Positions 9,244-31,642 of a stretch of DNA of 32,000 nucleotides are shown here, piece after piece; position 1 is the first letter of the stretch, and every line of letters begins with the position of its first letter. The stretch comes from Microcystis aeruginosa NIES-843 (GTDB lineage: Bacteria; Cyanobacteriota; Cyanobacteriia; Cyanobacteriales; Microcystaceae): NCBI RefSeq assembly GCF_000010625.1, contig NC_010296.1, positions 2,880,001 through 2,912,000 of the forward strand. The letters run 5' to 3'. The position numbers and the translations under genes were made by a program. The notes under the pieces are model-generated. The model did not search any database and was not told the origin of the DNA. It saw only the letters and a program-made list of their open reading frames with translations.

Positions 9244-10011
9244 TTAGCTATCCTTTTGTCGGCGTTTCATCGCCAGACCCAAGCCACCAGCAGCCAGCAG
9301 CCCAACAACAGTCCCCGGTTCGGGAATAGCAAATTGGGTTTGGGTGAAGGTTTGTTTGAACTGGGAAATGACGGATATTCCCGGACCGCCAGGACCCATA
9401 ACAGCTGACCCATTCAACATAGTGCTGACTGAAGTTGAAACGGGAAGCCCTGGGAAGACTGCCGATGCTGTTAAGACGTCTGGAACGAGGTTCGAGTCTA
9501 CAACTGTTAGGCTGGTGGGGACTGTTGGTTCGCTAAAGTCATCCATGATTTGGACCAAATTAATCAGACCACCCGTTGCCGTCGAGTTTTGCAGTTCTAA
9601 TTTTGCCTCAGCCAGGCGTAGCGTTGTGGGAAGAACCGTGAGATTATACCCAAAAGAGGAGGTAAAATTTTGAGAAAAAGCCGGAGCACCTGCGTCGTAT
9701 TGCAGACCAGCAGATAAAGTTGACCCAAAACCAGTTACGGTGACTGCATTCGAGACATTTAATGGAATGATATTCATTCCCGCGTTGCCATTTATCCATT
9801 CGTCAAATAGCTTGTCAAAGGTGCCATCTCCGTTCTCATCAATTTTGATGTAAGCGCCCGAATTAAAAAGTTGTGTTAAGGTGATCGGCCCACCAACCAC
9901 GTTGGTGCCATCGAAATATTCTATTATGGCGGCTGCCTGGACCGGTGCAGTGGCGAGGCCTAGAAGAGCGGCGACGGCACTAGGAATGGTAAATCTGAGT
10001 AATTTTGTCAT
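9244..10011 (-). CDS. Secreted PEP-CTERM sorting-domain protein.
   Basis: The C-terminus is PEPGTVVGLLAAGGLGLAMKRRQK (PEP motif, TM helix, basic tail). A signal peptide MTKLLRFTIPSAVAALLGLATAPVQAAA starts at the internal ATG 10011, preceded by GGGAG. The ORF-track start at 10092 is less likely. Confidence 0.8.
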   Translation of the reverse strand: MTKLLRFTIPSAVAALLGLATAPVQAAAIIEYFDGTNVVGGPITLTQLFNSGAYIKIDENGDGTFDKLFDEWINGNAGMNIIPLNVSNAVTVTGFGSTLSAGLQYDAGAPAFSQNFTSSFGYNLTVLPTTLRLAEAKLELQNSTATGGLINLVQIMDDFSEPTVPTSLTVVDSNLVPDVLTASAVFPGLPVSTSVSTMLNGSAVMGPGGPGISVISQFKQTFTQTQFAIPEPGTVVGLLAAGGLGLAMKRRQKDS

Positions 10012-10415
10012 CTGTATAGACTCCCACAGAGGTAAAGTGGATGTATAAATTATTATCGCAATGCTAACAGCAAATTTTTCCTTTGTCAACACAGAATTGC
10101 CTATTTGTCAAGAGATCACTGAAAAATTAGACCTCTTGCAAAAGTCTTAAGTCGATCCTTGTACAGCAACATTTTTGAAGATTATCAACTACTAATAAAT
10201 AATTAACTGAAAGTCCCTCCCATTATTGTTTCTATCGTTTGTTTTCGGATTTATGCAAGAAGTCTATTGTCAACAGATCACTGAAAAGAGTTTCTCCCCA
10301 CTTCCCCACTTCCCTAGATCTGATTCATTCTCCGAATCTAATTCTTTGTTTTGTTACCTTTAATCGCTTATGAGGTAAGCAAAGCACGACGTTTTGACAA
10401 ATTTTCAGCTATTTA

Positions 10416-16454: not shown

Positions 16455-16612
16455 AGACCTCTTGTAACAATCAAAAATTGTTGTTAGGGTTAGGAGTCAG
16501 TAGCCAGTAGTCAGTAGTCAGGAGAATTAAGAATGAATAATAATCAATTAAAGGGTCTATTTACAGATTTTAGGTAATTTAATCCTTATTTTTGCCGTTT
16601 TTGACCCCTGAA
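16455..16612. repeat. ~155-bp dispersed repeat whose inverted partner is at 23705-23861.
   Basis: The core 16488-16553 differs by about one mismatch from the reverse complement of 23764-23829. The flanks are ~75-80% similar by eye. Confidence 0.7.
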
Positions 16613-22359: not shown

Positions 22360-23061
22360 TTAGCTGTCTAAATAGGCGTTAATGATAGCGAGAGCCACTA
22401 AGGGAGCGGTAATTGTTCTCAAAATCCGTTTTCCCAGTGATACAGGTAGAAAATCAGCGGCGATCGCTTGTTCTATTTCTGCCTCCGTCCATCCCCCTTC
22501 CGGTCCGATGGCCATGGTTATCTCGGTTGATGTTTGCAATTGAGAAAGTAGCGGGTCCACTGTTCTACGGGTAACACCAATATAACAAGTTGTCCCTGGG
22601 CTAACTCCCCGGTTAAGGATGGCTAAAAATGGTTGTGGTTCTTCGATAATAGGAATAATCTGTCTTTCTGATTGTTCTACAGCTTCCCGGGCAATTTTTC
22701 GCCAACGGTCAATTTTTTGAGGACTAGGATTAACTAAACCGCGTTCTGTTAGCAGCGGAATAATCCGATAAACTCCTAATTCGGTGGCAGCGCGAACGAT
22801 ATCATCAAAGCCATTTTTGGGAATTGCTACCATTAAATTCACTTGTACTGGTAGTTCGGTGGTTTCGTTTATCGCTTCTAAAAGATGGGCCGAATTATCA
22901 ATTATTTCTGCTAACCACGCTTGTCCTTGTCCATTTAGGGCAATAAAATGGTCATGGGATTTTAAACGAACAACTTTTTTAAGATAATGACTTTGTTCGG
23001 GTGTTAAGGCAATTAACCCGTTTTCTAGGGTATTAAAATCAAGAAGAAGACGATAATACAA
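22360..23061 (-). CDS. rsmE: 16S rRNA (uracil1498-N3)-methyltransferase RsmE.
   Basis: N-terminal PUA-like region (HYLKKVVRLKSHDHFIALNGQG) and C-terminal SPOUT motifs IGPEGGWTEAE and LGKRILRTITA. Confidence 0.85.
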   Translation of the reverse strand: MYYRLLLDFNTLENGLIALTPEQSHYLKKVVRLKSHDHFIALNGQGQAWLAEIIDNSAHLLEAINETTELPVQVNLMVAIPKNGFDDIVRAATELGVYRIIPLLTERGLVNPSPQKIDRWRKIAREAVEQSERQIIPIIEEPQPFLAILNRGVSPGTTCYIGVTRRTVDPLLSQLQTSTEITMAIGPEGGWTEAEIEQAIAADFLPVSLGKRILRTITAPLVALAIINAYLDS

Positions 23062-23383
23062 GGCGGTTTAGTCTATATTACTATTGTGTTCAGAATCACT
23101 GTCAGCTATCTATTTTAGCTTTTATGGTGTTTTTGTATAAGGTTGAGAGTAGATCAGCTTATAGCAGTTATCTTAATGGTGAAGTACGAAGTTTTCCTTT
23201 TGGGTAGTCAGTCGTCAATACCAAATTAGGTTATACTTCATGTTTATGACAAAGGCTATAACTTACTATGGCCTTACCTACTCAGATATGTTATAAAATT
23301 TATCCTCATCAAGGTATCTCTTGCCAAATAAGAATTAAGACTTGACAATCTCCACTCCCTAACCCCTAACCCCCAGAAAATCC

Positions 23384-23554
23384 ATGGACATAACTGCTAA
23401 AATTGAAGAACTGGCACAAAAATATGAGATACCTCCCCAACTGCTCAAGGAAGCCATGGCTTTAGAAGTAGAAAAAATTACTCTAAAAAATCGGCAGCTA
23501 TCACCTAAAATTGTCAAACTTATCGAAAAATATACCGACTCCTCACAATCATAA
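23384..23554 (+). CDS. Small 56-aa helical protein missed by the ORF track. Possible partner of the downstream DndD-like ATPase.
   Basis: ATG 23384 to TAA 23552-23554 encodes MDITAKIEELAQKYEIPPQLLKEAMALEVEKITLKNRQLSPKIVKLIEKYTDSSQS. Its composition is protein-like, unlike the low-complexity 71-aa antisense ORF 23359-23574. Confidence 0.5.
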   Translation: MDITAKIEELAQKYEIPPQLLKEAMALEVEKITLKNRQLSPKIVKLIEKYTDSSQS

Positions 23555-23610
23555 ATTTTATGGCTCTCTTGCATGATTTATTTTTTGTAAGTAGGGAGGC
23601 ACAATTATTT

Positions 23611-23675
23611 GTAGGATGGGTTAGCGGTAGCGTAACATGAGCGGAAGTTGGGTTTCATGCTTCAACCCAAACTAC
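23611..23675. repeat. Hairpin repeat (GTTGGGTTTCATGCTTCAACCCAA core inside GTAGG...CTAC arms). A second copy lies at ~31575-31625.
   Basis: Direct comparison of the two loci. Confidence 0.55.
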
Positions 23676-23704
23676 ATTCATCTTATATTTAATTCCACCC
23701 ACCC

Positions 23705-23861
23705 ACTTAGTTTAAAAACGACAAAAATAAATATTAAGTTGCATAAAATCTCTAAATAAACCATTTAATTGATTATTATTCATTCTTAATTCTCCTGATT
23801 ACTGACTACTGGCTACTGACTCCTAACCAACCACAAAATTTTTGATTTTTACAAGAGTTCT
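23705..23861. repeat. ~155-bp dispersed repeat, the inverted partner of 16455-16612. It ends at the ATG of the DndD-like gene.
   Basis: Reverse-complement alignment to the kaiC-downstream copy. Confidence 0.7.
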
Positions 23862-23862
23862 T

Positions 23863-25809
23863 ATGACTTTGAGACTGAAACAAATTCGCTTAACTAATTG
23901 GAAATGTTACCCTAGTCAAAATATTACTTTTAACCTGCATCCCGACAGAAAAATTCAGATTATCTTCGGTAATAATGGTCACGGTAAAACTTCTCTGATG
24001 ACGGCGATTTTATGGTGTCTCTATGGGGTAGATATTGTATCTAAAGAGACTCTGAAAACCTATTTTTATCGAGGTAAGGATGATTCTTCATCAGTAGAAG
24101 AAAAAGAAATGCGGGTAGAATTAAATTTTACTAGAAACGAGAAAAATTACTTTATCAGTCGCACAGCGAAATTAAAAGATAATGGTAGCACTTCTTATCC
24201 CAGCGTAGAGGAAGCATTATTTTATGAAGATGGAACCATGAGAAGTAACTCTAGGGAATATATCGAAGCATTGCTTCCTAAATCTATTCGAGATTTTTTC
24301 TGTTTTGATGGTTTAAAAATTGAACAATATACCCAGATAACCCAAACTAAAGAAGCAAAAGAAGCAATTGAAAAAGTTTTGGGTATCCCTGAATTAAGAA
24401 ATCTGCGCGATGATACAGAAAAAGCCTTACAAGAATTAGAAAACCGTTTCAATAAAGCAGAGGGAACCAGTCAAGCTTTAAAAGATAAGAGAAAACAATT
24501 GCGAGAATTAGAAGGAGACCTTGACCTTCAAAAAGGTCAGCTTAAAAATGCTAAAGATGAGGAAAAAAATGCTATAATTATTCATCAAGATGCTCAAGAA
24601 AAAGCCGCTCATATTGAAAGTTTACGAGAAAAATTAGAGGAAATTCATAACTTAGAGAAAAAGCGTATCGGTTTACAAACTCAGTTAGATAACCTGCAAA
24701 AGTCTATCGATTCTTGGTTAAAAAAAGCTTCGATACCTTTGCTGATTAACTTTGTACAGGAAATGGCCGATGATTTGCAAGTTACTAGCTTAAAAAGCAC
24801 TTATAAAACTAATTCCACAGCAATTTTACAAGCAATACTTGACGATAAAAGCTGTCTATGTGGTCGTTGTTTAGATAAAAATTCTCGGGACTTTATCCTG
24901 CAACAAATTGCCGAACTAGAGTCCTTAGAAGTGGACAACGCCACCAGAATAGAAAAAGACCAAATTAGAATTGATTTACAGGGAATTATGCGAGATAATG
25001 CTAAATTTAGCAATTATAGTCAATTACTTTTGCAAAGAGATCGTTTAGAAGAAGAAATCGAAGAAATTAATCAACATATTAGACAGCTAAAACAGGAAAA
25101 CACGGGAATAGATCAAGACTCGGTGAGGCAGATTTGGCGAAAAGTTGGCGAATCTGGTAAAAATGTTGAGATGATCCAAGAAAGGATCGAACGCTTGCAA
25201 AAGGAAATTGAAATCAAAGAAAAGCAATTAGAAAATTTACGCAAAGAAGTGGAAATTTTAGCTAGTGAAAATCAAACCACACTGATGTTATCTAATCAGG
25301 TTAAAATGGCCAGAGGTTTAAAAAATGCCACTAACGAATTAATCGAATGGCATATCGATAATTCCCAAAAAATGATTAATCAAGTAACCAGCGATCGCTA
25401 TTTACAAGTAACCAACAAACCGGAGGAATATAGAGGAGTAGAAATCACTCCCGAATACACTTTAGGAATCCGTACCATCACAGGAAAATTATTAAATCCC
25501 GATGTTTTAAGTGCGGGAGAAAAGGAAGCTTTAGCTTTTGCTTTTATCACCGGTTTAAATCAAATAACTGATACTTGTGTTCCCCTAATTATGGATACAC
25601 CTTTTGGCCATTTAGACAAAGAACATCAAAAAAATATTATTAACTCTCTCCCTAATTTAAACTCCCAAGTAATTATTTTAGCCACCGATCGCGATCTTCC
25701 CGATCCACTTTTACATCTGCTGCGTCCCCACAGTACTGATATTTTTAAAATACACCGTTTGGCTGCCGATGAAGATGCTTCCGTGATTGAAGTAATGGAG
25801 AGTTACTAA
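23863..25809 (+). CDS. DndD-like SMC/ABC-type ATPase with a long coiled-coil insert and a central CxCxxC motif.
   Basis: Walker A GNNGHGKTS (23968-23994), FCFDGLKIEQY, ~350 aa of E/K/L/Q heptad-rich sequence, signature LSAGEKEAL (25507-), Walker B/D-loop PLIMDTPFGHLD (25582-25617), and QVIILATDRD. The start is taken as ATG 23863 (MTLRLKQIRL) rather than TTG 23842. Confidence 0.8.
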   Translation: MTLRLKQIRLTNWKCYPSQNITFNLHPDRKIQIIFGNNGHGKTSLMTAILWCLYGVDIVSKETLKTYFYRGKDDSSSVEEKEMRVELNFTRNEKNYFISRTAKLKDNGSTSYPSVEEALFYEDGTMRSNSREYIEALLPKSIRDFFCFDGLKIEQYTQITQTKEAKEAIEKVLGIPELRNLRDDTEKALQELENRFNKAEGTSQALKDKRKQLRELEGDLDLQKGQLKNAKDEEKNAIIIHQDAQEKAAHIESLREKLEEIHNLEKKRIGLQTQLDNLQKSIDSWLKKASIPLLINFVQEMADDLQVTSLKSTYKTNSTAILQAILDDKSCLCGRCLDKNSRDFILQQIAELESLEVDNATRIEKDQIRIDLQGIMRDNAKFSNYSQLLLQRDRLEEEIEEINQHIRQLKQENTGIDQDSVRQIWRKVGESGKNVEMIQERIERLQKEIEIKEKQLENLRKEVEILASENQTTLMLSNQVKMARGLKNATNELIEWHIDNSQKMINQVTSDRYLQVTNKPEEYRGVEITPEYTLGIRTITGKLLNPDVLSAGEKEALAFAFITGLNQITDTCVPLIMDTPFGHLDKEHQKNIINSLPNLNSQVIILATDRDLPDPLLHLLRPHSTDIFKIHRLAADEDASVIEVMESY

Positions 25810-26216
25810 TGCAGAGAATCGATCCCAGTTTGAAGATTTATGCCTCGGAAACTTCCAGAAATTATCTACAGGTACTAAAAGATAATAAAACCTTTGAGCG
25901 CATGGTAGATGCCTATTTATTCGCGGCTGCTTTTGCCATTAAACAAGACTTCAGTATCTACGGAACCACTCTGAGCAATCGACAAGATTTAATTACTATT
26001 AGCCAAATCGATCCAGAAGTTATTTTAGCTTTAACCGCAGGAATTTATATTATCTGTAAAAAGAATTCCTATCCTCAACCCAGCGATGGCAAAGAAGTTT
26101 TAGATAAGATCTGTCAATACGCAGAAGTGGGATTAAGGGAATTAAAAGAACGCTGGCAAGGCAAAGTCAGCAATCAAATCCAAGCTGATATTGAGAGAAT
26201 TATCGATAATCTCTGA
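25809..26216 (+). CDS. 135-aa helical protein translationally coupled to the ATPase. Possibly DndE-like or Dnd-associated-protein-4-like (unverified).
   Basis: TAATG overlap at 25807-25811. The pattern FERMVDAYLFAAAFAIKQD and its size recall small Dnd-cluster accessory proteins. No search was possible. Confidence 0.65.
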   Translation: MQRIDPSLKIYASETSRNYLQVLKDNKTFERMVDAYLFAAAFAIKQDFSIYGTTLSNRQDLITISQIDPEVILALTAGIYIICKKNSYPQPSDGKEVLDKICQYAEVGLRELKERWQGKVSNQIQADIERIIDNL

Positions 26217-26258: not shown

Positions 26259-26510
26259 TTACATTCTTTCCACACTGCCAAAAAAGACGGGTTCCACCCG
26301 AATAGCAACGATACTAGCCGGACGTAAAACCATATATTCCCCTTGGATATTTCTGATCGGAACATTGATAAAATCTTGGGAATCGGCTTTCGGAACTAAT
26401 TCGTTACTGTACCACTTTTGAAATTCTTGGATAGTCAAAAAACGGACTTCCTCGCGATGTCCACTGCTTAAGAACAAATGTACTGCGTACTCGTCAGCTT
26501 TTCTACTCAT
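26259..26510 (-). CDS. 83-aa hypothetical protein, last gene of the minus-strand three-gene operon.
   Basis: Its start lies 5 nt after the stop of the 259-aa gene. The sequence is non-repetitive and protein-like. Confidence 0.6.
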   Translation of the reverse strand: MSRKADEYAVHLFLSSGHREEVRFLTIQEFQKWYSNELVPKADSQDFINVPIRNIQGEYMVLRPASIVAIRVEPVFFGSVERM

Positions 26511-26515
26511 TTTTT

Positions 26516-27295
26516 TTAACTAATCAGATTGAATTTTTGTAATAAAGTTGCCATTAAAGGCGGAAAAGTGAGACGCAATTCGCTAAGATCCGAGAAAATT
26601 AATTTTTGGTAGCTTGGCAGGTCAAAAGCCAGTTTACCCTTTAATTCCGCCCGATTTTGATAGGTCAGCAGAATTTGTCCGCCCTGTTTACAAGCGATCG
26701 CATAACCTAATTCTACACCCACTAGGGGACTGGGCAGTAATTCCGTTTCCTTTTGGCTAATCGCCGTAGCATCGGCAATAAATAATAAACTTTTGCGAAT
26801 TTTGCGTAGTTGACTATCACTCAATCTGGTGACATTGCCCTCAGTTCGGGGCGTTTCTTCGATGGTTAAGGGCAAACGGGAGCGTTTATTGAGATTTTCG
26901 ACGGTTTCGGTCAAAATTGTTCTTAAAGCGGTGCTAGAGTCCTTAAATTGGCTTTGGGAGCTAAAATAAATGACGGGATCCAACCAAGCGCTGAGGTCCT
27001 GTTTAGTAAAGTAAATTTCTTGGGAAATCAGGTCAATATTCGAGATGACGTAACCGCCACTACCTTCGAGGTAAAATTCCACCCTTTCCCCTTCTAGATA
27101 GCGTTGGAACCAGACAGAACCCTGTATCGTCAGACTATCATCGAGAAAATCGGCTCTTAAACCCGATTTTAGGAGACTATTGCGACTTAAGCGCAAGTCG
27201 TGGGGACGTTTGACAACCTCGCGGATAGGTTCGTATTTGTCCAGATACCAAGCTTTCAGGGCAATGATGGCCATAGGTGTGGCGATTAAAGACAC
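26516..27295 (-). CDS. 259-aa hypothetical protein whose C-terminal half resembles a nucleoside 2-deoxyribosyltransferase / TIR-like Rossmannoid domain.
   Basis: C-terminal pattern PVIYFSSQSQ ... LLFIADATA ... PLVGVELGYAIACKQGGQILL (VELGYA at 26699-26716). This matches the beta1, ADxxxA and xE(L/I)GYAxAxxKP layout of the NDT/TIR-like fold. Confidence 0.6.
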   Translation of the reverse strand: MSLIATPMAIIALKAWYLDKYEPIREVVKRPHDLRLSRNSLLKSGLRADFLDDSLTIQGSVWFQRYLEGERVEFYLEGSGGYVISNIDLISQEIYFTKQDLSAWLDPVIYFSSQSQFKDSSTALRTILTETVENLNKRSRLPLTIEETPRTEGNVTRLSDSQLRKIRKSLLFIADATAISQKETELLPSPLVGVELGYAIACKQGGQILLTYQNRAELKGKLAFDLPSYQKLIFSDLSELRLTFPPLMATLLQKFNLIS

Positions 27296-30329: not shown

Positions 30330-30584
30330 ATGTTAGCCAGTTATATTGATCAAGCGATGGCATTAGCTCGATACGAAATCATTGAAGAAGATGGCACTTA
30401 TTGGGGTGAAATTCCACCCCTTCAGGGAGTTTGGGCAAATCACGCCAATCTAGAAGATTGCCAGCAAGAATTGCGCGAAGCTTTAAGCGATTGGATTGCT
30501 TTGCGTCTGTGTTTAGGTTTGCCGATTCCAGTGTTAGCAGGAATAGATCTTAATCTCCTTCCTCAACCCATGTCTTCAATTTAA
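30330..30584 (+). CDS. hicB: HicB-like antitoxin (UPF0150 / HicB_lk_antitox type).
   Basis: YEIIEEDGTYWGEIPPLQGVWANHANLEDCQQELREALSDWI pattern. It ends 3 nt upstream of hicA. Confidence 0.7.
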   Translation: MLASYIDQAMALARYEIIEEDGTYWGEIPPLQGVWANHANLEDCQQELREALSDWIALRLCLGLPIPVLAGIDLNLLPQPMSSI

Positions 30585-30587
30585 GAT

Positions 30588-30806
30588 ATGCCTAAATTAA
30601 CCGCCGTATCATGGCTTAATCTAGTTCAAAGATTACGAGAACTTGGGTTTGACGGTCCCTACGCTGGGGGTAAACACCCTCAAATGCGTCGGGATAATTT
30701 AACGATAATTATCCCCAATCCCCATCAAGGTGAAATAGGGGTAGGACTGTTAAAACGCATTCTCAATCAAGCGGGTATTACCAGAGAAGAATGGCTGGGA
30801 AAATAG
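30588..30806 (+). CDS. hicA: HicA-family mRNA interferase toxin.
   Basis: LVQRLRELGF...GGKHPQMRRDNLTIIIPNPHQGEIGVGLLKRILNQAGITREEW matches the HicA/YcfA pattern, including the catalytic His context. Confidence 0.8.
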   Translation: MPKLTAVSWLNLVQRLRELGFDGPYAGGKHPQMRRDNLTIIIPNPHQGEIGVGLLKRILNQAGITREEWLGK

Positions 30807-31308: not shown

Positions 31309-31642
31309 AGAGCAGTCTCCTTGAAGTTATATTAATTATCTTATCGCAAAAGGGAACAAGTTAGGGAAAAGATTTCCCTAACTTGTCCTTATTAGTTAAT
31401 TAGCTAGGAAGGATGAACTATTCTGCTGAAGTTTTTCCCAATACAATGAAAGCTTATACTAAATTGATTTTTGATAGTATCATTAACTGCCAATCCAACT
31501 TTAAAAACCCACTTCCCACTTGCCACTCTATACTTGTTAAATAAGATTTAGTATAACTCGATCGCTGTTAAAATTGCGGTAGAATCGGGAGAGGGTTGGG
31601 TTTCATGCTTCAAACCAACCTACGTTCTTTTTAAATAAGATT

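What the first reader, a model, noticed from the sequence alone, without database searches (positions are those of the whole stretch)
23384..26216. Orphan DndD-like ATPase with a coupled 135-aa protein and an upstream 56-aa protein, and no Dnd/Ssp modification or nuclease genes in view
The 648-aa ORF has a split ABC/SMC head. Its parts are GNNGHGKTS, FCFDGLKIEQY, LSAGEKEAL, PLIMDTPFGHLD and QVIILATDRD, wrapped around ~350 aa of coiled coil. I associate the FFDG, DTPxGxLD and ILxTD motifs with the DndD/SspC-type clade rather than RecF, RecN or SbcC. Its stop overlaps the start of a 135-aa helical protein (TAATG), which implies co-translation. A well-formed 56-aa helical ORF that the ORF track missed lies upstream on the same strand. 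Nothing in 32 kb resembles DndA/IscS, the PAPS-reductase-like DndC, DndB/DGQHR, or any nuclease, TIR or HNH effector on this strand. The trio sits in repeat-bounded accessory DNA between housekeeping rsmE and argS. It could be a minimal stand-alone DNA-surveillance or defence module. It could also be a remote sensor arm of a phosphorothioation system encoded elsewhere. I vaguely recall RefSeq families named DNA phosphorothioation-associated protein 4 and DNA modification system-associated small protein that co-occur with DndD-like ATPases, but I cannot verify membership here.
Basis: partly seen in the sequence, partly recalled or inferred. Interest (0 to 1): 0.8.

Follow-up and report, generated by a model that had tools for sequence, protein, structure and literature searches.

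The report
Pbe defence locus missing its nuclease
The "orphan" ATPase trio is the PbeB-PbeC-PbeD part of the already described PbeABCD anti-virus system of Microcystis, in a strain that has lost the nuclease-helicase gene pbeA through a 2.4-kb deletion, so it is a damaged copy of a known system and not a new stand-alone module.

Summary
The 648-aa ATPase is not DndD proper (TIGR03185 186 bits, cutoff 245.85). It is PbeC, the "CxC ABC-ATPase" sister clade (PADLOC PbeC 1100 bits, CxCxxC zinc hook at C331-C336). The 56-aa protein is PbeB/Sp-DndD-like, just under threshold. The 135-aa protein has a DndE-like predicted fold, as expected for PbeD.

The window is a Microcystis chromosome. In 22 Microcystis genomes pbeB-pbeC-pbeD sits at this same site between rsmE and argS. 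Eleven of them also carry an intact 683-aa PbeA (HKD nuclease fused to an SF2 helicase, PADLOC 729 bits) and a 108-aa membrane protein just upstream. Five have an internally deleted, decaying pbeA. Six, including the window, have none. The window still holds the last 12 codons and stop of pbeA at 23259-23296.

No dnd gene, DNA methylase or nuclease lies in the 32 kb. PbeC and PbeD remain under purifying selection without pbeA (ω about 0.3 and 0.14), so the core may keep a weak nuclease-independent function. Microcystis pbeAC loci are already listed in Xiong et al. 2019. This is a known system, and interest is low to moderate.

The parts
23147..23258 (.). 112-bp filler at the deletion junction. 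It replaces 2,385 bp (the p108 gene and all but the last 38 bp of pbeA) found in pbeA-intact Microcystis genomes.
   Evidence: blastn of the window against L002: window 23042-23146 matches L002 7216-7320 and window 23259-23388 matches L002 9706-9828. The filler is shared at 95% identity by the pbeA-less loci L001, L008 and L009 only.
23259..23296 (+). Remnant of the 3' end of pbeA: the last 12 codons plus the stop.
   Evidence: The window reads ...YYGLTYSDML*. Intact PbeA in L002 ends ...YYGLTYSDLL*. Nucleotide identity over the 38 bp is 94.7%.
23384..23554 (+). pbeB-like small protein (56 aa, Sp-DndD type).
   Evidence: Pfam Sp-DndD PF20306 scores 22.7 bits, below the gathering score of 27.2. 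PADLOC PbeB E=8e-4. Two relatives at 83-88% identity carry a precomputed PF20306 hit. It is conserved directly upstream of pbeC in all Microcystis loci and in Pannus. It evolves fast, with ω 0.4-0.8.
23555..23862 (.). 308-bp insertion between pbeB and pbeC, made of dispersed short repeats (MITE-like).
   Evidence: It is absent from L002-L012, where the pbeB stop lies 12 bp before the pbeC ATG, and it is shared with L001. Its 3' half matches window 16455-16602 on the opposite strand at 88.7% identity, and another piece matches 31595-31636. Spacers of 189, 309 and 434 bp occur in other strains, including pbeA-intact ones.
23863..25809 (+). pbeC: CxC-type ABC ATPase (648 aa), the sister clade of DndD.
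   Evidence: PADLOC PbeC PDLC02726 scores 1100 bits with E=0, against 201 bits for the best DndD model. NCBIfam DndD TIGR03185 scores 186.3, below the 245.85 cutoff. Rad50, RecF, SbcC and SMC are all far below their cutoffs. Pfam AAA_23 and SMC_N match. All ABC motifs are intact. ω is about 0.32.
24853..24870 (+). CxCxxC zinc-hook motif (C331, C333, C336) at the midpoint of the coiled coil.
   Evidence: The sequence is SCLCGRC at residues 330-336 of 648. It is identical in L002 and in the 58%-identical Pannus orthologue. The NAR 2024 paper names this as the defining feature of the CxC ABC-ATPase clade.
25809..26216 (+). pbeD-like protein (135 aa) with a predicted DndE-like fold, translationally coupled to pbeC.
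   Evidence: TAATG overlap. The AF2 model has pLDDT 92.7 and pTM 0.88. The eight best Foldseek PDB hits are all DndE (4LRV, 7X4E), with TM 0.61-0.70 by target and probability 0.84-0.96, but E is only about 0.4. One of 25 family members hits PADLOC PbeD at E=1.4e-5. There is no direct Pfam, NCBIfam or PADLOC hit. ω is about 0.14.

Best explanation
The region is the chromosomal PbeABCD locus of Microcystis, also called the CxC ABC-ATPase-DndE anti-invader system, in an allele that has lost its effector gene.

Shown here:
- The ancestral cassette at this site is p108-pbeA-pbeB-pbeC-pbeD.
- In the window's lineage a 2.4-kb deletion removed p108 and pbeA (HKD nuclease fused to an SF2 helicase). It left 38 bp of the pbeA 3' end, then pbeB, a 308-bp repeat insertion, pbeC and pbeD.

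Inferred from the literature on the family:
- PbeC dimerises through its CxCxxC zinc hook and its ABC heads, and loads on or scans DNA using ATP.
- It does this together with the DndE-like DNA-binding protein PbeD.
- The small, fast-evolving PbeB acts as a regulator or trigger-sensing subunit.
- In the full system this sensor core directs PbeA to invading DNA.

Inferred for this allele: without PbeA the locus cannot cleave or translocate DNA. What remains is the sensor core. It is intact and still under purifying selection. It therefore most likely keeps a weak, nuclease-independent activity, binding foreign DNA and blocking its replication, as reported for the pbeA deletion mutant in Haloarchaea. 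In effect this is a low-activity allele within a population-wide pbeA presence/absence polymorphism.
For: Identity of the parts:
- PbeC: PADLOC 1100 bits, CxCxxC hook conserved in Pannus, DndD cutoff failed.
- PbeB: near-threshold hits to Sp-DndD and PADLOC PbeB.
- PbeD: DndE-like fold and a transitive PADLOC PbeD hit.

Full cassette at the same site:
- L002, L003, L004 and L006 have a 683-aa PbeA (PADLOC PbeA 729 bits; Pfam PLDc_2, ResIII and Helicase_C) immediately upstream of pbeB.
- Seven further strains have the same.
- Pannus keeps p108-pbeA-pbeB-pbeC-pbeD in a different neighbourhood.

Deletion, not insertion: breakpoints are mapped and the pbeA 3' remnant is retained.

State counts in 22 genomes: 11 full, 5 internally deleted, 6 none.

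Continued selection:
- PbeC ω is 0.33 (full), 0.30 (partial) and 0.32 (none). PbeD ω is 0.28, 0.14 and 0.14.
- PbeC is intact in 10 of 11 pbeA-defective genomes. The pbeA remnants in the same genomes carry frameshifts, stops and 5-10% nucleotide divergence.
- Simulated neutral substitution leaves only 1.5% of ORFs intact at 4% divergence.

Literature:
- All four pbe genes are needed for full protection, but pbeBCD without pbeA still gave low-level resistance, and viral DNA was not degraded (PMC6459918).
- Component assignments come from PMC10853773.
- The Microcystis pbeAC loci are already tabulated without linked dndCD.
Against: - Residual function is inferred and not shown. The PbeC tree interleaves the three pbeA states, so recombination or repeated loss blurs the timing. 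Some of the divergence used for ω may predate the deletions.
- One pbeA-less MAG (L009) has pbeC interrupted at codon 176, which fits the start of decay.
- The 308-bp insertion uncouples pbeB from pbeC in the window and may affect expression. No promoter signal above chance was found.
- PbeD and PbeB membership rests on sub-threshold sequence scores, a Foldseek E-value of about 0.4, and gene position.
- The mechanism of PbeABCD itself is disputed: no DNA cleavage in Xiong 2019, against predicted HKD cleavage in the NAR 2024 paper.
Confidence: 0.85

Rival explanations
1. Dead relic. After losing its effector, the pbeBCD remnant has no function and is drifting towards loss. The ORFs are intact only because the deletion is recent or because recombination with pbeA-intact strains keeps refreshing them.
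For: Xiong 2019 found all four genes indispensable for full protection. L009 has a disrupted pbeC. The window has a repeat insertion between pbeB and pbeC. The PbeC tree interleaves the pbeA states, which fits allele exchange.
Against: ω for PbeC and PbeD is the same or lower in pbeA-defective genomes. Ten of 11 keep a 645-648-codon ORF, although synonymous divergence within the defective groups is 0.12-0.19. The adjacent pbeA remnants did decay. No sampled genome has lost pbeC-pbeD outright.
Confidence: 0.3
2. Remote arm of a modification system. PbeBCD here works with phosphorothioation (dnd or ssp) or methylation genes, and perhaps with another nuclease, encoded elsewhere in the genome.
For: PbeABCD activity depended on PT modification in Haloarchaea. 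M. aeruginosa PCC 7806 is reported to have unlinked DndB/C/D/E homologues. CxC systems are often combined with Dnd systems.
Against: Nothing of the kind lies within 32 kb. Xiong's table marks the Microcystis pbeAC loci as lacking dndC and dndD nearby, and the one 'MTase' it lists is the rRNA methyltransferase RsmE. The Pbe locus is present in every sampled Microcystis genome, whereas a dnd cluster is on record here for one strain only (PCC 7806). A remote modification system would still not replace the missing PbeA effector.
Confidence: 0.12
3. A new, minimal stand-alone DNA-surveillance module: an ATPase and two small proteins that evolved to work without any nuclease.
For: The trio is co-conserved, coupled and under purifying selection.
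Against: The orthologous site in 11 of 22 genomes and the Pannus copy all carry pbeA. The window retains a pbeA fragment, so the three-gene state is a secondary deletion and not a designed architecture. The ATPase scores 1100 bits on an existing PbeC model.
Confidence: 0.03

Closest known systems
PbeABCD (Xiong et al. [quoted passage not shown]
   Same: The gene order pbeB-pbeC-pbeD matches. PbeC matches the HMM at 1100 bits and has the CxCxxC hook. A small, fast-evolving protein lies upstream and a protein with a DndE-like fold lies downstream. Sister Microcystis genomes and Pannus carry the full four-gene cassette at the orthologous locus. Microcystis pbeAC loci are already listed in that paper's Supplementary Data 4.
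   Different: pbeA (HKD nuclease-SF2 helicase) is deleted in the window. A 308-bp repeat separates pbeB from pbeC. No linked dndCDEA or cytosine methylase is present. The intact Microcystis and Pannus cassettes have an extra 108-aa membrane protein gene upstream of pbeA that is not part of the published description.
DndD of the DndABCDE phosphorothioation machinery (TIGR03185)
   Same: Same ABC/SMC-like head, about 350-400 aa of coiled coil, full-length alignment to the DndD model, and pairing with a DndE-like protein.
   Different: The score (186 bits) is below the curated cutoff (245.85). A CxC zinc hook is present, and the NAR 2024 paper states that DndD lacks one. No DndC, DndB or DndA is nearby.
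Rad50/SbcC zinc-hook ABC ATPases
   Same: ABC head split by a coiled coil with a cysteine hook at the apex. The N-terminal head aligns weakly (Rad50 83 bits).
   Different: Scores are far below the cutoffs of 700-1087 bits. The coiled coil is much shorter. There is no Mre11/SbcD nuclease partner.

Membership tests
PbeABCD / CxC ABC-ATPase-DndE system | PbeC: an ABC ATPase of the CxC clade that matches the PbeC HMM | tested here: met
   PADLOC PDLC02726 scores 1100.2 bits, E=0, over residues 3-643 of 648. Twenty-one further PbeC models score 118-217 bits.
PbeABCD / CxC ABC-ATPase-DndE system | CxC-type zinc hook at the apex of a roughly 400-aa coiled coil | tested here: met
   C331-x-C333-x-x-C336 lies at the midpoint between the Walker A (residue 36) and the signature motif (residue 549). 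It is identical in Microcystis L002 and in Pannus. Metal binding was not tested.
PbeABCD / CxC ABC-ATPase-DndE system | Cognate DndE-like protein (PbeD) encoded next to the ATPase | tested here: inconclusive
   There is no direct Pfam DndE, NCBIfam or PADLOC PbeD hit. In support: a confident AF2 model (pLDDT 92.7) whose eight best PDB matches are all DndE (TM 0.61-0.70 by target, probability 0.84-0.96, E about 0.4); one distant family member hits PADLOC PbeD at 1.4e-5; and the gene sits in the right position with a TAATG coupling. This leans towards met.
PbeABCD / CxC ABC-ATPase-DndE system | Small, rapidly evolving protein (PbeB / Sp-DndD) upstream of the ATPase | tested here: inconclusive
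   PF20306 scores 22.7 bits against a gathering score of 27.2. PADLOC PbeB gives E=8e-4. Relatives at 83-88% identity carry a precomputed PF20306 hit. ω is 0.4-0.8, the highest in the locus. This leans towards met.
PbeABCD / CxC ABC-ATPase-DndE system | PbeA: HKD endonuclease fused to an SF2 helicase | tested here: not met
   PbeA is absent from the window and only 38 bp of its 3' end remain. It is present and intact at the orthologous site in 11 of 22 Microcystis genomes and in Pannus.
PbeABCD / CxC ABC-ATPase-DndE system | Linked DNA modification module (dndCDEA or a cytosine methylase). This is frequent but not universal: 320 of 553 pbeAC loci are solitary. | tested here: not met
   None lies in the 32-kb window. 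The rest of the genome cannot be tested with these tools.
DndD (TIGR03185, DNA sulfur modification protein) | Score at or above the curated equivalog cutoff | tested here: not met
   186.3 bits against a cutoff of 245.85. The best PADLOC DndD model scores 200.8 bits, against 1100 for PbeC.
DndD (TIGR03185, DNA sulfur modification protein) | Operon partners DndC (PAPS-reductase-like), DndE, and optionally DndB and DndA | tested here: not met
   No such domains were found in any ORF of the window.
RecF / RecN / SbcC / Rad50 / SMC | Score at or above the curated family cutoff | tested here: not met
   Rad50 scores 82.6 against a cutoff of 700, RecF 41.1 against 172, SbcC 25.3 against 478.5, and SMC 23.9 against 729.
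   NCBIfam release 20 gave no family at E<=0.1 for either protein.

The most novel reading that the evidence does not exclude
The PbeB-PbeC-PbeD core has a selectable function of its own that does not need the PbeA nuclease-helicase. It could, for example, clamp DNA in an ATP-dependent way and stall replication of invading DNA, or do a chromosome-maintenance job. Microcystis populations would then keep pbeA as a costly add-on that is present in some strains and absent in others. That would separate the sensing half of CxC/Dnd-type systems from the effector half in nature. It would also bear on the dispute over whether Pbe acts with or without DNA cleavage.
Probability: 0.3. Interest if true: 0.5.

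Novelty: already known. Interest (0 to 1): 0.25.

Why it matters
For annotation, this shows that an apparent orphan defence ATPase can be resolved by comparing the same site in sister genomes. The missing effector was deleted, and a 38-bp scar proves it.

For biology, the modest point of interest is a natural experiment. Across 22 Microcystis genomes the nuclease-helicase gene is intact, broken or gone, while the ATPase-DndE core is always kept and still evolves under constraint. If the core works alone, that would support the reported non-degradative mode of Pbe action. It would also make Microcystis, a bloom-forming cyanobacterium under heavy phage pressure, a useful system for separating sensing from killing in Dnd-type defences.

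The work also corrects a small item in the literature. The "methyltransferase" listed next to the Microcystis pbeAC loci is the rRNA methyltransferase RsmE, not a DNA-modification partner.

Tried and rejected
- p259 (26516-27295, -) as a hidden effector. It had weak hits to nucleoside 2-deoxyribosyltransferase (E=0.003) and to a PADLOC TIR-PNTD model (E=0.014). I rejected it because it has 1,815 relatives at 60-75% identity across cyanobacteria, lies on a different contig from the Pbe module in Pannus, and has ω of about 0.1.
- Repeat boundaries or a mobile island around the trio. Only chance-level repeats were found.
- Sequence-level link of p135 to DndE. Profile searches against PDB sequences with 12 and with 25 family members gave only noise. 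Pfam scans of 25 members gave no DndE hit.
- PF27807, precomputed for two p135 relatives. It is not in the local Pfam copy, so its name stayed unknown.
- Promoter and terminator scans. Counts equalled the shuffled expectation and were uninformative.
- Identifying the strain through an exact PbeC lookup. Only 2-3 kb metagenome contigs were returned.
- Dating the deletions from the PbeC tree. The pbeA states are interleaved, so no clean post-deletion branches could be defined.
- Searching this genome for dnd or ssp genes.
Full report

Yes, in its essentials. The + strand carries three ORFs:
- a 56-aa ORF at 23384-23554;
- a 648-aa ORF at 23863-25809, counted from the ATG that aligns with all orthologues (an upstream TTG would give 655 aa);
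- a 135-aa ORF at 25809-26216.

The stop of the ATPase gene and the start of the 135-aa gene share one base: TAA at 25807-25809 and ATG at 25809-25811.

The window is a cyanobacterial chromosome. It carries kaiABC, psaE, feoAB, ispF, rsmE and argS. None of the other 18 larger ORFs has a Dnd, helicase, nuclease or DNA-methylase domain. GC falls to 0.33-0.36 across the trio, against about 0.43 nearby.

Two descriptive claims fail. The region is not bounded by meaningful repeats. It is also not strain-variable in the usual sense of "accessory" (section 3).

**2. What the three proteins are**

*The ATPase.* It aligns end to end with NCBIfam DndD (TIGR03185) but scores 186.3 bits, below the curated cutoff of 245.85. 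Rad50, RecF, SbcC and SMC models are far below their cutoffs. In PADLOC one PbeC model (PDLC02726) scores 1100 bits with E=0, while the best DndD model reaches 201 bits.

The protein has C331-x-C333-x-x-C336 exactly midway along the coiled coil. This motif is identical in a 58%-identical orthologue from Pannus brasiliensis. According to the NAR 2024 reappraisal of Dnd systems, a CxC zinc hook at the coiled-coil apex defines the "CxC ABC-ATPase" clade, which is the sister of DndD. That paper equates the clade with PbeC of PbeABCD.

*The 56-aa protein.* It hits Pfam Sp-DndD (PF20306) at 22.7 bits, against a gathering score of 27.2. It hits PADLOC PbeB at E=8e-4. Two relatives at 83-88% identity carry a precomputed PF20306 hit. 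It is the fastest-evolving gene of the locus, with ω 0.4-0.8. That matches the published description of PbeB as a small, rapidly evolving protein.

*The 135-aa protein.* It hits nothing directly in Pfam, NCBIfam or PADLOC.
- An AlphaFold2 model built on 12 homologues is confident, with pLDDT 92.7 and pTM 0.88.
- Its eight best matches among solved structures are all DndE (4LRV from E. coli B7A, 7X4E from Natronorubrum). TM is 0.61-0.70 normalised to the target and probability is 0.84-0.96. The Foldseek E-values are only about 0.4.
- A profile search of 1.8 billion representatives finds a small family of 56 proteins. One of 25 distant full-length members hits PADLOC PbeD at 1.4e-5, and none hits Pfam DndE.

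Given its position and its coupling to pbeC, I read it as a divergent PbeD, the DndE cognate. That membership is supported and not proven.

**3. Why it looks orphaned**

A scan of one genome per species found the ATPase in 12 Microcystis genomes (85-92% identity) and in Pannus (58%). In all 12 Microcystis loci the trio lies in the same place: psaE-DUF6391-rsmE, then pbeB-pbeC-pbeD, then p83-p259-MoNitroC-argS.

Four of these loci have an extra 2.4 kb between rsmE and pbeB. It encodes a 108-aa membrane protein and a 683-aa protein on the pbe strand. The 683-aa protein is PbeA. It scores 729 bits on PADLOC PbeA and carries Pfam PLDc_2, ResIII and Helicase_C domains. Pannus has the same five genes in an unrelated neighbourhood.

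Five loci carry a pbeA that has lost codons 29-541, all with the same breakpoints. Its remnants have frameshifts, stops and 5-10% nucleotide divergence. The window, L001, L008 and L009 have neither p108 nor pbeA.

The breakpoints map as follows:
- window 23042-23146 matches L002 7216-7320;
- window 23259-23388 matches L002 9706-9828;
- the 2,385 bp in between are replaced by a 112-bp filler, which the other three pbeA-less loci share.

The window still reads ...YYGLTYSDML* at 23258-23296, against ...YYGLTYSDLL* at the end of intact PbeA. The three-gene state is therefore a secondary deletion.

For a sample chosen without regard to Pbe, I looked up contigs encoding the exact neighbouring 83-aa protein. 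All 10 have pbeC-pbeD at the site. Seven have intact p108-pbeA, one has the partial deletion and two have none.

Over 22 distinct genomes the counts are 11 full, 5 partial and 6 none.

A second change in the window is a 308-bp insertion (23555-23862) between pbeB and pbeC. In most genomes these genes are 12 bp apart. The insert is built from dispersed repeats, with copies at 16455-16602 and 31595-31636. Spacers of other sizes occur in pbeA-intact strains too, so the insertion is independent of the deletion.

**4. Is the remnant alive?**

Pairwise Nei-Gojobori estimates give the following ω values.

| Gene | pbeA full | pbeA partial | pbeA none |
|---|---|---|---|
| PbeC | 0.33 | 0.30 | 0.32 |
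| PbeD | 0.28 | 0.14 | 0.14 |

Flanking housekeeping genes have ω of 0.06-0.21.

PbeC keeps a 645-648-codon ORF in 10 of 11 pbeA-defective genomes. Synonymous divergence within those groups is 0.12-0.19. Simulated neutral substitution keeps the ORF open in only 1.5% of trials at 4% divergence. The pbeA remnants next door did decay.

This argues that pbeC and pbeD stayed under selection after the effector was lost. There are caveats:
- the PbeC tree interleaves the three pbeA states, so recombination or repeated loss prevents clean dating;
- one MAG (L009) has a disrupted pbeC;
- expression was not tested, and the consensus promoter scan was uninformative.

**5. How it most likely works**

Established in the literature: in Haloarchaea, PbeABCD with DndCDEA blocks viral DNA replication without detectable DNA degradation. 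All four genes are needed for full protection, but the pbeA deletion mutant retained low-level resistance (PMC6459918). The Aravind group reads PbeA as the HKD nuclease-helicase effector. They read PbeC-PbeD as an ATP-driven DNA-scanning pair and PbeB as a regulator or trigger sensor (PMC10853773).

Inferred for the window: the sensor core (PbeB, PbeC, PbeD) is intact and the effector is gone. The locus can at best bind or clamp DNA and interfere weakly with invader replication. At worst it is an inactivated allele kept by recombination. I put identity at about 0.9 or higher, and retained function at roughly even odds.

**6. Partners elsewhere?**

Nothing in 32 kb qualifies. The one neighbour with a hint of an effector-like domain is p259, with a weak nucleoside deoxyribosyltransferase hit. 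It is a pan-cyanobacterial core protein that is unlinked to Pbe in Pannus.

Xiong's Supplementary Data 4 lists three Microcystis strains with PbeA and PbeC, no DndC or DndD nearby, and "MTase existing". For NIES-44, that MTase (BBPA01000066.1, 97117-97818) is exactly rsmE in locus L020. RsmE is an rRNA methyltransferase.

Frangeul 2008 reports unlinked DndB/C/D/E homologues in strain PCC 7806. Phosphorothioation genes therefore exist in at least some Microcystis strains. I could not test whether the window's strain has them.

**7. Comparison with known systems, and verdict**

The locus belongs to the described PbeABCD / CxC ABC-ATPase-DndE kind. Microcystis examples are already tabulated in the literature. 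The window's copy fails one defining feature, PbeA, because of a mapped deletion, so it is an incomplete member and not a new architecture.

What remains of interest is the population-level pbeA polymorphism combined with a constrained sensor core. It is worth a follow-up by someone working on Dnd/Pbe mechanisms, but it is not surprising to a specialist. I score interest at 0.25 and class the system as already known.

Noticed in passing
L020 13033-13734 (M. aeruginosa NIES-44, BBPA01000066.1 97117-97818); window 22360-23061: The 'MTase existing' entry next to the Microcystis pbeAC loci in Xiong 2019 Supplementary Data 4 has exactly the coordinates of rsmE, a 16S rRNA methyltransferase (Pfam Methyltrans_RNA + PUA_4). 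It is not a DNA methylase. At least these three of the 155 'solitary pbeAC near an MTase' cases are therefore false partners.
   Followed up: yes
L002 7364-7690; L013 4251-4538 (absent from the window): A 108-aa protein with an N-terminal membrane helix is encoded immediately upstream of pbeA, 2 bp before its start in Microcystis. It is conserved in Pannus at 53% identity. It has no Pfam or PADLOC family and is not part of the published PbeABCD description, so it may be a fifth component of this cyanobacterial subtype. It was lost together with pbeA in the window.
   Followed up: partly
window 23555-23862; L019, L020 and L023 about 9643-10075; L022 and L026 about 9640-9827: The pbeB-pbeC spacer is a hot spot for small repeat insertions. 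It is 12 bp in most species representatives and 189, 309 or 434 bp in other strains, both with and without pbeA.
   Followed up: partly
L009 10001-12064: In one pbeA-less MAG (Microcystis aeruginosa W13-11) pbeC is interrupted at codon 176 by an insertion of about 126 bp. This is the only broken pbeC among the 22 genomes.
   Followed up: partly
window 30330-30806 (+): A HicB-like (84 aa) and HicA (72 aa) toxin-antitoxin pair sits between argS and ispF. Other Microcystis strains have a DUF2281-PIN pair at the same spot (L019-L024), so this site swaps toxin-antitoxin cassettes.
   Followed up: no
window 26516-27295 (-) and 26259-26510 (-): p259 is an uncharacterised protein conserved across cyanobacteria, with 1,815 relatives at 60-75% identity. 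It has a weak, sub-threshold resemblance to nucleoside 2-deoxyribosyltransferase. It is always followed by the very highly conserved 83-aa protein (ω about 0.06). The function of both is unknown, and they are unrelated to Pbe.
   Followed up: partly
L013 9641-11335 (-) and 9148-9606 (-): In Pannus the Pbe cassette is followed on the opposite strand by a 564-aa ATPase that hits the PADLOC mad3 and mad8 models, plus a 152-aa protein. This suggests the Pbe cassette lies in a defence island there.
   Followed up: no
Xiong 2019 Supplementary Data 4: Several cyanobacteria (Arthrospira spp., Anabaena cylindrica, Anabaena sp. PCC 7108, Aulosira) are listed with 'PbeA' spans of only 660-760 bp next to a full-length PbeC. 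Erosion of pbeA may therefore be recurrent in cyanobacteria and not peculiar to Microcystis.
   Followed up: no
L017 1-1736, and the same in L019, L020, L021, L023 and L025: Beyond ispF, several Microcystis strains carry an AAA_15/AAA_21 ATPase plus a DUF4276 gene pair, which is a candidate defence pair. Other strains have secA there. I did not check which arrangement the window has past position 31309.
   Followed up: no
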